Notes: generated from the letters alone by a model not told the origin. A DNA stretch of 24,963 nt from a virus (IMGVR_UViG_3300017585_000072:1-24963), one strand, 5' to 3'. Shown: positions 17,280 to 17,528, counted from the first letter of the stretch. Translations and numbers: made by a program.

Positions 17280-17528
17280 ATGGAAACAAATACAGAAACC
17301 GGTATTATTAGTCGGCGCATTCGGATGACAAATATTACTGACCTGACGGAATTTGTAATTAAAGCTTCTCAGGTAGTAGGAGATATCACTGTTCGCAAAG
17401 GAATCTATGTAATTGATGGTAAGTCCCTTATGGGTCTTATGTCTATTGACGTATCTTCTGGAGCGGTGGTTGAGTATCCAGAAGAAGCAACCGAGTTTGA
17501 TGCTTTTATCGCCCCTTTTGAGGCATAA
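17280..17528 (+). CDS. HPr/Crh-like phosphocarrier-fold protein lacking the His15 site
   Basis: DGKSLMGLMSID matches HPr NLKSIMGVMSLG (Ser46 loop). FVIKASQVVGDI matches LVQTASKYDADV. The His15/Arg17 positions read N/T. Confidence 0.6.
   Translation: METNTETGIISRRIRMTNITDLTEFVIKASQVVGDITVRKGIYVIDGKSLMGLMSIDVSSGAVVEYPEEATEFDAFIAPFEA

What the first reader, a model, noticed from the sequence alone, without database searches (positions are those of the whole stretch)
17280..17528. HPr/Crh mimic: HPr fold with the Ser46 loop retained but His15 and Arg17 replaced
The 82-aa protein aligns to Bacillus HPr over its full length; GKSLMGLMSID matches the Ser46 regulatory loop almost exactly. The PEP-dependent phospho-acceptor His15 aligns with Asn and Arg17 with Thr. 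That is the Crh-like situation: usable by HPr kinase/phosphorylase and able to pair with CcpA, but outside the PTS phosphorelay. A phage copy could hijack carbon catabolite control or titrate HPrK/P in a Firmicutes host. It is co-transcribed with the RNA ligase.
Basis: partly seen in the sequence, partly recalled or inferred. Interest (0 to 1): 0.6.

Follow-up and report, generated by a model that had tools for sequence, protein, structure and literature searches.

The report
Histidine-less mini-HPr carried by phage
A large phage of Firmicutes carries a small, conserved copy of the bacterial sugar-signalling protein HPr that has lost its phosphate-carrying histidine loop but kept the regulatory serine site, so it may act as a decoy in the host's carbon-source signalling, though nobody has tested this.

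Summary

It is not Crh. It belongs to a distinct, uncharacterised "mini-HPr" subfamily of 71-86 aa. In this subfamily the G-x-H-x-R-P loop is deleted by 3-5 residues and replaced by a plain helix cap, while the Ser46-equivalent is nearly invariant (144/146). Members occur in chromosomes of Clostridia and Negativicutes and in several lineages of their large phages. These include cultured Enterocloster phages, where the gene is auto-annotated "phosphocarrier protein HPR" and never discussed.

The gene is co-transcribed with the RNA ligase, but it is dispensable cargo. Only 7 of 80 related ligase loci carry it, and the same junction holds unrelated auxiliary genes elsewhere.

My best reading (about 0.4) is a host-derived mimic of the HPr serine face that competes at HPrK/P or at P-Ser-HPr partners. 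A Crh-like CcpA corepressor role is unlikely because Arg17 and the loop are absent. I rate it a new variant of a known kind, of moderate interest.

The parts
16016..16044 (+). sigma-70-like promoter (TTGATA-17-TATAAT, with TG) upstream of the RNA ligase; putative start of the ligase/mini-HPr transcription unit
   Evidence: 11 of 12 matches. This is a consensus match only.
16077..17264 (+). RNA ligase (N-terminal PHA02142 OB domain plus RNA_ligase domain); upstream cistron
   Evidence: PF21189 8e-22, PF09414 9e-19; phrog_968 2e-65
17265..17269 (+). Shine-Dalgarno AGGAG, 10 nt before the ATG
   Evidence: sequence read directly
17280..17528 (+). mini-HPr coding sequence (82 aa plus TAA stop)
   Evidence: Purifying selection: dN/dS 0.17 against L001.
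17331..17342 (+). codons N18-I19-T20-D21: helix-1 capping box that occupies the place of the HPr His15-Ala16-Arg17-Pro18 active site
   Evidence: helix 19-30 in the model. Column statistics over 146 members: col 18 is S/T/G/N, col 21 is D in 103/146, and no conserved His or Arg. HARPA is scored as an insertion in HPr.
17415..17450 (+). codons D46-D57 (DGKSLMGLMSID): Ser46-type loop and helix 2; Ser49 codon at 17424-17426
   Evidence: S49 in 144/146, G52 in 134/146, K48 in 110/146; K-S-h-h-G in 245/299
17534..17568 (+). intrinsic terminator (9-bp stem, 6-nt loop, T-run) ending the ligase/mini-HPr unit; a TGATATAAT -10-like element follows at about 17570-17582
   Evidence: and sequence. L002 has the same terminator-plus-promoter layout.
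17618..17989 (+). context: Cys-rich zinc-finger protein, first gene of the next unit
   Evidence: phrog_1257, 2e-9; no Pfam hit
17989..18477 (+). context: P-loop polynucleotide kinase (AAA_33)
   Evidence: PF13671 2.7e-21; phrog_505 3e-21
18646..19200 (+). context: metallophosphoesterase (RNA end-healing phosphoesterase type)
   Evidence: (phrog_547 1e-43)

Best explanation
SHOWN:
- The ORF is a real, selected gene for an HPr-fold protein.
- It belongs to a separate 'mini-HPr' subfamily of 71-86 aa.
- In this subfamily the phospho-histidine loop (G-x-H-x-R-P) is shortened by 3-5 residues and replaced by an ordinary helix capping box (S/T/N-x-x-D). The protein therefore cannot carry phosphate in the PTS.
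- The Ser46-type N-cap motif (D/N-G/A-K-S-[LI]-[ML]-G) is almost invariant.
- The subfamily lives in chromosomes of Clostridia and Negativicutes, as stand-alone genes with no PTS neighbours, and in several lineages of their 100-200 kb phages.
- In this phage the gene is an optional cargo gene. It sits at a variable junction between the RNA ligase and the polynucleotide-kinase operon and is transcribed as the second cistron behind the ligase.

INFERRED (mechanism):
- The protein shows host proteins the helix-2/Ser46 face of HPr without the histidine face.
- The most likely target is the host HPr kinase/phosphorylase. The phage protein would be phosphorylated on Ser49, or would simply occupy the enzyme.
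- This would compete with host HPr for Ser46 phosphorylation, or compete with P-Ser-HPr at its partners. The result would be a shift in catabolite control, inducer exclusion or PTS flux during infection.
- Without Arg17 and with a shortened loop, it is more likely a competitor or decoy, or a cofactor of some other regulator, than a working CcpA corepressor like Crh.
For: - Fold and family.
- Loss of the His site across the subfamily: 0 of 299 members carry G-h-H-x-R-P. There is no conserved His or Arg in the loop columns. HARPA is scored as an insertion in HPr.
- Serine motif retained: S49 in 144/146 and G52 in 134/146; K-S-h-h-G in 245/299. It is present in all 8 ligase-linked phage copies and in the other phage copies.
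- Real gene: RBS and dN/dS of 0.17-0.20 for the least saturated pairs.
- Cellular origin: Megamonas, Lacrimispora, Hungatella, Clostridium transplantifaecale and Johnsonella members are named 'HPr family phosphocarrier protein'. Their contexts carry no PTS genes.
- Accessory status: only 7 of 80 loci of the same ligase clade carry it. In 21 of 35 junctions the ligase and the Cys-rich gene are directly adjacent. Other junctions hold NAD-salvage genes, PIN-PhoH, SPFH, a Bmp lipoprotein or flagellin. Carriers are scattered over the ligase tree.
- The subfamily also occurs in Enterocloster phages that show no homologue of this ligase (inferred from the organism counts).
- Precedent that P-Ser-HPr paralogues in Clostridia serve regulators other than CcpA: F. 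prausnitzii HPr2(Ser-P) with FruR (PMC11906611).
Against: - No phosphorylation, binding or phenotype data exist.
- A conserved Ser46 is not proof of HPrK/P use. It is a structural helix N-cap and is also kept in E. coli HPr, which has no HPrK/P (my own knowledge).
- The helix-1 half of the HPr interaction surface is altered (His15, Arg17 and the loop). As I recall, this half also contacts HPrK/P in 1KKL, so recognition may fail.
- The host is unknown, so the presence of hprK and ccpA could not be checked.
- The bacterial members have no known function, so the phage copy may do whatever they do, unrelated to carbon control.
- The gene nearly always sits directly 3' of the ligase when present (6 of 7 loci, plus window, L001-3, L048/49, L052-54). 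This leaves some room for a ligase-related role.
Confidence: 0.4

Rival explanations
1. A phosphorylation-independent binding module. The serine is kept only as a helix cap. The mini-HPr, in bacteria and in phages, is a small adaptor or regulator for a target unrelated to HPrK/P and catabolite control, and the phage borrowed it for that unknown purpose (host takeover or anti-defence).
For: - Bacterial copies are stand-alone with variable neighbours and never sit next to PTS, hprK or ccpA genes.
- The conserved D21 fits a structural capping box.
- The subfamily has its own conserved V-E-Y-P and F73/F76/F80 features that are absent from HPr.
- HPr-fold surfaces are promiscuous binders: PDB complexes exist with glycogen phosphorylase, Rsd and FruR.
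- No PADLOC or PHROG family covers it.
Against: The conserved motif is not only Ser but K-S-[LI]-[ML]-G with Met48 and Gly49 equivalents. That is the form typical of HPrs from HPrK/P-containing Firmicutes rather than of enteric HPr (my own knowledge). All named carriers are Firmicutes.
Confidence: 0.33
2. An accessory subunit or regulator of the RNA-repair cassette. The mini-HPr binds the RNA ligase (or the kinase or phosphoesterase) and modulates tRNA/RNA repair during infection.
For: - It forms a bicistronic unit with the ligase: a 15-nt gap, a shared promoter and a terminator.
- The order ligase > mini-HPr > Cys-rich > kinase > phosphoesterase recurs in the window, L001, L002, L003, L048/49, L052/53, L054, L065, L102, L104 and L121.
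- When present, it lies 12-117 nt after the ligase in 6 of 7 IMG/VR loci.
Against: - 73 of 80 loci of the same ligase clade lack it, and most have the ligase directly followed by the Cys-rich gene and the kinase.
- The same junction carries unrelated cargo.
- In L050/51 and L095 it is separated from the ligase.
- Other phages carry it among nucleotide-metabolism or recombination genes.
- Bacteria have it with no ligase nearby.
- Ligase-linked copies have no distinguishing sequence feature compared with the rest of the subfamily.
- A review of phage RNA-repair systems does not mention HPr (PMC7824862).
Confidence: 0.12
3. One reading: a true Crh equivalent that is phosphorylated by HPrK/P and then activates CcpA binding to cre sites, imposing catabolite repression on the host.
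For: - HPr fold and Ser46 motif.
- Crh is a known His15-less paralogue that works this way (PMC3526391; PMC4591507).
- Crh is among the best PDB sequence matches.
Against: - Arg17 and the full-length loop, which Crh retains, are missing.
- The protein falls far below the NF010354 equivalog cut-off, 25.6 against 123 bits.
- The subfamily is separate from Crh and is found in Clostridia, where at least one species uses P-Ser-HPr with FruR and its CcpA-like protein did not bind (PMC11906611).
Confidence: 0.1

Closest known systems
Crh (catabolite repression HPr) of Bacillus
   Same: HPr fold. No His15, so it is outside the PTS phosphorelay. Conserved K-S-I-M-G-L-M-S Ser46 motif. Stand-alone small protein. 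Crh is among the best PDB sequence hits.
   Different: Crh keeps the full-length active-site loop with Gln15-Ala-Arg17-Pro-Ala and is 85 aa. The mini-HPr has that segment shortened by 3-5 residues, has no Arg17, and has its own V-E-Y-P motif. It fails the NF010354 equivalog score, 25.6 against 123. Crh is confined to Bacilli as far as I know, whereas this subfamily is found in Clostridia, Negativicutes and their phages.
Canonical HPr (PtsH) of Firmicutes
   Different: No phospho-acceptor His and no Arg17. About 10 residues shorter in typical members. Never next to ptsI or EII genes in the loci examined. Far below the TIGR01003 and PRK13780 cut-offs.
Faecalibacterium prausnitzii HPr2
   Same: An HPr paralogue in Clostridia specialised for regulation through Ser46 phosphorylation, with a partner other than CcpA (FruR) (PMC11906611). 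It shows what a regulatory-only HPr can do in this group of bacteria.
   Different: HPr2 still has His15 (weakly phosphorylated) and is about 11 kDa. No sequence comparison with the mini-HPr was made here.
Phage-encoded HPr-like proteins already in databases: Enterocloster phage PMBT24 WDQ45469.1 ('phosphocarrier protein HPR'); UniProt/BFVD A0A8S5S213, A0A8S5PSI8, A0A8S5S9E0
   Same: Small HPr-fold proteins in phages of gut Firmicutes. For the PMBT24 copy I saw the His-less state and the I-D-A-K-S-I-M-G motif directly. The BFVD entries are shown only as fold matches.
   Different: They carry automatic names only. The PMBT24 genome paper never mentions the gene. They are 30-38% identical to subfamily members and sit in other gene contexts (XerD, spore cortex-lytic enzyme, RecA).
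T4-type RNA end-healing and sealing pathway (Pnkp + Rnl) and the extended phage RNA-repair sets (RlaP, Thg1, TROVE/vault)
   Same: The genes around the finding are exactly such a set: RlaP, Thg1, MVP-shoulder, SPFH, ligase, kinase and phosphoesterases (PMC7824862).
   Different: No HPr-fold component has been described for these systems, and here it is absent from most related cassettes.

Membership tests
HPr fold / Pfam PTS-HPr (PF00381) | Profile match above the curated gathering score | tested here: met
   26.5 bits against a GA of 23, E 6.8e-6, covering residues 23-65 only. About half of the subfamily members have no precomputed PF00381 hit.
HPr fold / Pfam PTS-HPr (PF00381) | Open-faced beta-sandwich with beta-alpha-beta-beta-alpha-beta-alpha order, superimposable on solved HPr | tested here: met
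PTS phosphocarrier HPr (functional PtsH) | Phospho-acceptor His15 in a G-x-H-x-R-P loop | tested here: not met
   No His in the loop. 0 of 299 subfamily members carry the signature. The loop is shortened.
PTS phosphocarrier HPr (functional PtsH) | NCBIfam HPr models reached (TIGR01003, PRK13780) | tested here: not met
   17.1 against 47.9 bits; 20.7 against 110 bits.
PTS phosphocarrier HPr (functional PtsH) | Genomic linkage to ptsI or EII genes | tested here: not met
   No such gene in the window or in the phage and bacterial loci annotated.
Crh | Non-His residue at 15 within an otherwise intact loop, with Arg17 retained | tested here: not met
   Crh has Q-A-R-P-A. Here the segment reads N-I-T-D in helix register, or is scored as deleted.
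Crh | Conserved Ser46 motif (K-S-I-M-G-x-M-S) | tested here: met
   K48-S49-L-M-G-L-M-S55.
Crh | NCBIfam equivalog NF010354 (PRK13782) cut-off | tested here: not met
   25.6 against 123 bits.
Crh | Ser46 phosphorylation by HPrK/P | not testable with these tools
   Needs a kinase assay or a complex prediction. The host is unknown.
Crh | P-Ser form binds CcpA and promotes cre binding | not testable with these tools
   Needs binding or reporter assays. The absence of Arg17 argues against it (inference).
mini-HPr subfamily (defined here) | 71-86 aa; shortened beta1-alpha1 loop with an S/T/N-x-x-D cap; D-G-K-S-[LI]-[ML]-G; V-E-Y-P after strand 4 | tested here: met
   All features are present in the window protein and in the column statistics over 146 members. 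106 clusters (at 50% identity) have E<=1e-10 to the profile.
Phage RNA-repair cassette (ligase, kinase, phosphoesterase) component | Consistent co-occurrence with the cassette across related phages | tested here: not met
   Present in 7 of 80 loci of the ligase clade and in 4 of 35 ligase/Cys-rich junctions. Also occurs without the cassette.

The most novel reading that the evidence does not exclude
Mini-HPr proteins would be a dedicated class of serine-only HPr signalling proteins in Clostridia. Large phages would have captured them repeatedly as decoys. The phage copy would be phosphorylated by, or would jam, host HPrK/P, draining or blocking HPr-Ser-P signalling (catabolite repression, inducer exclusion, PTS throttling) to keep sugar uptake and energy supply high during infection. 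This would be the first described viral manipulation of the HPr regulatory node.
Probability: 0.25. Interest if true: 0.7.

Novelty: new variant of a known kind. Interest (0 to 1): 0.5.

Why it matters
HPr-Ser46 phosphorylation is the central carbon-status signal of Firmicutes. The library searches made here found no described virus that targets it. If the mini-HPr is a substrate or inhibitor of HPrK/P, phages of gut and rumen Clostridia would be rewiring host sugar preference during infection. That matters for carbohydrate turnover in these ecosystems.

Independently of the phage, the work separates out a widespread cellular subfamily. It has at least 106 clusters at 50% identity. It is currently named 'HPr family phosphocarrier protein' although it cannot carry phosphate on histidine. 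That is an annotation error worth correcting, and the subfamily is an untouched regulatory protein family. A cultured system exists for testing: Enterocloster bolteae and phage PMBT24.

Tried and rejected
- Direct tblastn of the window protein against 50,697 GenBank phages found nothing. Only more central subfamily members found the Enterocloster phages.
- PHROGs and PADLOC give no family for this protein or for five other members.
- The search for related loci with the broad alignment A2 failed because no stretch was conserved enough. With the single ligase protein it found nothing. Alignments A1 and A3 worked.
- Giant proteins at the top of the representative search (P0006, P0083, P0090, P0100, P0108) are cadherin-like repeat proteins hit through SL.LGM.ID...STG. 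I rejected them as artefacts.
- Longer 'fusion' members (P0038, P0054, P0062, P0069, P0077, P0099, P0119) showed no informative extra domain and are probably start-codon over-extensions.
- A link to a DinG-like helicase in bacteria proved to be one orthologous locus seen in two genomes, so it is not a general association.
- B. cereus Bc1009, the 'Hpr-like phosphocarrier', was looked at and not pursued, because nothing tied it to this subfamily.
- Literature searches for phage HPr, His-less HPr in Clostridia, and HPr in RNA repair found nothing on this subfamily.
- Several key papers could not be read: Deutscher 2006, Warner & Lolkema 2003, Horstmann 2007, Burroughs & Aravind 2016.
- The afdb50 fold library was unavailable.
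- A ligase/mini-HPr fusion prediction was considered and dropped, because the tool returns no interface confidence.
- dS is saturated for most gene pairs, so only the two closest pairs were used.

Full report
**1. The observation**

An AGGAG sits 10 nt upstream, and the gap to the preceding RNA ligase gene is only 15 nt.

Homology to HPr is real:
- Pfam PTS-HPr gives E 6.8e-6 and 26.5 bits against a gathering score of 23. Only residues 23-65 align.
- phmmer against PDB sequences finds T. tengcongensis HPr, B. anthracis HPr and B. subtilis Crh at E 1.6e-3 to 1e-2.
- NCBIfam's HPr and HPr-family models are hit far below their cut-offs: 25.6/123, 20.7/110 and 17.1/47.9 bits.

Ser49 is the N-cap of helix 2, exactly as Ser46 is in HPr. 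The motif D-G-K-S-L-M-G-L-M-S-I-D compares with N-A-K-S-I-M-G-L-M-S-L-A in Crh.

**2. The histidine site**

There is no His and no Arg in the loop.

Sequence methods show that the loop is also shorter. MAFFT needs a 3-residue deletion relative to B. subtilis HPr and Crh. A profile of the subfamily aligned to T. tengcongensis HPr treats H-A-R-P-A as a 5-residue insertion in HPr.

Across 146 relatives:
- the column of N18 is S/T/G/N;
- the next column is I/V/L;
- the column of D21 is Asp in 103.

This is a classical S/T/N-x-x-D helix capping box. The catalytic loop has been replaced by a purely structural cap.

**3. It is one member of a large subfamily**

Only five close homologues exist among 5.8 billion clustered proteins. 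An exhaustive HMM search with their alignment finds 1273 clusters (at 50% identity) at E<=1e-3 and 106 at E<=1e-10. Nearly all of the listed ones are 71-86 aa.

- none has the G-h-H-x-R-P signature;
- 245 have K-S-h-h-G.

Ser49 is present in 144 of 146 aligned members, Gly52 in 134 and Asp46 in 122. The subfamily has its own V-E-Y-P motif after strand 4.

Named members come from Megamonas funiformis, Clostridium transplantifaecale, Johnsonella and Lachnospiraceae. All are labelled 'HPr family phosphocarrier protein'. A genome scan added 38 chromosomal loci, mostly Lacrimispora and Hungatella. Their neighbours vary and never include PTS genes. Examples are MarR/GNAT/ClC channel, radical-SAM plus DUF4130, a response regulator, and a DinG-like helicase. 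About half of the members have no precomputed Pfam hit at all.

**4. Phage distribution**

The window is phage DNA of a Gram-positive host type. It carries a holin-like gene and an endolysin with glucosaminidase, amidase_2 and SH3_3 domains, plus RNase H and a GyrB/Toprim gene. It also carries a large RNA-repair and conflict island: PARG, three metallophosphoesterases, RlaP, Thg1, an MVP-shoulder protein, SPFH, the RNA ligase and a polynucleotide kinase.

Relatives of the mini-HPr occur in these phage sequences:
- contigs of about 133-145 kb with the same gene order;
- other viral contigs, among thymidylate-synthase-like, NrdD, NAD-ligase and guanylate-kinase genes, once as two paralogues;
- six cultured Enterocloster bolteae phages of 97-107 kb.

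In phage PMBT24 the gene is annotated 'phosphocarrier protein HPR' and lies between a spore cortex-lytic enzyme gene and hypothetical genes near XerD and RecA. The genome paper does not mention it. BFVD holds three more viral HPr-fold proteins with automatic names. No PHROG or PADLOC family covers any member.

**5. What the ligase linkage means**

A promoter-like site at 16016-16044 (11/12 matches, with TG) precedes the ligase. A terminator at 17534-17557 with a T-run follows the mini-HPr stop. L002 has the same terminator followed by a TGATATAAT element. Co-transcription is therefore well supported by sequence signals.

I collected 80 IMG/VR loci carrying the same ligase clade at 42-56% identity. 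The results were:
- Only 7 contain a mini-HPr within about 4 kb.
- Of 35 loci with the ligase and the downstream Cys-rich gene on one strand, 21 have the two directly adjacent (60-230 nt) and 4 have the mini-HPr between them.
- Nine more have other inserts, and one has a 346-nt gap with no ORF.
- The annotated inserts are a four-gene NAD-salvage set, PIN-PhoH, SPFH, a metallophosphoesterase and a Bmp lipoprotein. In L102 the mini-HPr is accompanied by a flagellin gene.

On an unbootstrapped neighbour-joining tree of the ligases, mini-HPr carriers sit at ten or so separate places, with non-carrying neighbours.

The junction is a cargo hotspot at an operon boundary, and the mini-HPr is one dispensable passenger. 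The Enterocloster phages apparently lack this ligase type, which I infer from the organism counts. The RNA-repair-partner idea is therefore weak, though not excluded, because when the gene is present it almost always lies directly 3' of the ligase.

**6. Is it a functional gene?**

The two least saturated pairs give dN/dS of 0.17 (window against L001) and 0.20 (L048 against L003). All eight ligase-linked copies keep D-G-K-S-[LV]-[ML]-G.

**7. Mechanism**

Shown:
- HPr fold;
- no phosphohistidine chemistry possible;
- Ser46-type motif conserved at near-invariant level;
- cellular origin in Firmicutes;
- accessory status in phages.

Inferred:
- The protein offers the helix-2/Ser46 face of HPr to host proteins.
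- The Met48 and Gly49 equivalents are kept. To my knowledge this is the form typical of HPrs from HPrK/P-containing bacteria, unlike enteric HPr (K-S-L-F-K).
- The first candidate partner is therefore HPrK/P, either as a substrate or as a competitive occupant. The consequences would fall on HPr-Ser-P levels, catabolite control, inducer exclusion and PTS flux.

A Crh-like corepressor role is less likely. Crh retains Arg17 and the full loop. His-15 and Arg-17 of HPr are both reported to take part in signal processing via CcpA. I could only see the title of that paper (Horstmann et al. 2007) in reference lists, and its content is from memory.

At least one Clostridium-class bacterium, F. prausnitzii, uses a regulatory HPr paralogue in its Ser-P form with FruR rather than CcpA (PMC11906611). 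The partner could therefore be a different regulator.

The main rival is that the serine is only a helix cap and that the subfamily binds something unrelated to carbon control.

**8. Comparison and novelty**

The closest named relative by function is Crh, but membership fails on the loop, Arg17 and the equivalog score. By fold the protein is an HPr, but it fails the phosphocarrier definition.

Phage copies already sit in databases under automatic names. The existence of 'phage HPr-like proteins' is thus not new, but I found no description or experiment.

The following appear not to be in the literature I could search:
- the loop-deleted, serine-only subfamily;
- its misleading 'phosphocarrier' name;
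- its recurrent capture by large phages of Clostridia.

I rate it a new variant of a known kind, with interest 0.5.

**9. Limits**

- The host is unknown.
- No coordinates were available to inspect the interaction surface.
- HPrK/P and CcpA contact residues are recalled, not checked.
- The 80 ligase loci are the best of 318 and are limited to +/-4 kb.
- The ligase tree has no support values.

Noticed in passing
window 17529-17617, and the equivalent junction in L059-L138: The boundary between the RNA ligase and the Cys-rich/kinase operon is a cargo hotspot in this phage group. Different relatives carry here a nicotinamidase + NAPRTase + NadD-like + NAD synthase set (L059), PIN-PhoH (L091), SPFH (L103), a metallophosphoesterase (L060), a Bmp/PnrA lipoprotein (L094), or mini-HPr plus flagellin (L102).
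   Followed up: yes
L102 3179-4030; L048/L049 438-1811 (- strand): Phage contigs of this group encode flagellar proteins: a full flagellin (Flagellin_N + Flagellin_C) and a FliD cap protein. This is unusual cargo for a phage, and its function is unknown.
   Followed up: partly
window 10449-12913 (break at 11458): Relative to the near-identical JGI contig Ga0315757_1000202 (L057), the window lacks 52 nt at position 11458. This splits an 838-aa MVP-shoulder/vault-like gene into two ORFs (10449-11465 and 11477-12913). It is either a natural frameshift variant or an assembly artefact.
   Followed up: partly
window 4983-15590: An extended RNA-repair and conflict island lies upstream of the finding: microbial-type PARG (4983-5885), metallophosphoesterases (5863-6639, 14787-15590), RlaP nucleotidyltransferase (6632-7636), Thg1-like 3'-5' polymerase (9125-9931), the vault-like MVP-shoulder protein and SPFH/Band-7 (12910-13758).
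   Followed up: partly
window 963-2153 (- strand): A 396-aa ORF with a weak RVT_1 reverse-transcriptase match (31.2 bits against GA 29.6). It is followed on the same strand by a 586-aa ORF with no Pfam hit (3138-4898). It could be a diversity-generating retroelement or another RT system. No template or variable repeats were looked for.
   Followed up: no
window 17618-17989: The Cys-rich 123-aa protein that starts the kinase operon matches phrog_1257 ('ribosome associated inhibitor A; zinc finger domain', 2e-9) and is conserved next to the kinase in most related phages. It may belong to the RNA-repair cassette.
   Followed up: partly
L005/L006 5839-6081 and 7989-8219; protein P0020: One viral contig carries two diverged mini-HPr paralogues 2 kb apart, among ThyX-like and guanylate-kinase genes. 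One metagenomic protein (157 aa) is a tandem fusion of two mini-HPr domains.
   Followed up: no
L055 5001-7738; L056 5001-7944; L011 2634-5219: Bacterial mini-HPr genes sit directly upstream of a DinG-like DEAD_2 helicase in two genomes (one orthologous locus). In another genome the gene sits directly after a radical-SAM + DUF4130 DNA-repair-type pair. This is a faint nucleic-acid theme that may be chance.
   Followed up: partly
proteins P0006, P0083, P0090, P0100, P0108: The subfamily HMM spuriously hits giant cadherin-like repeat proteins (up to 20 stretches each) through a short SL.LGM.ID...STG similarity. This is a trap for automated annotation of 'HPr domains'.
   Followed up: yes
window 20100-22038: The lysis module has a weak holin-like ORF (20100-20465) overlapping a 532-aa endolysin with glucosaminidase + amidase_2 + two SH3 domains. 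This points to a Gram-positive host.
   Followed up: no
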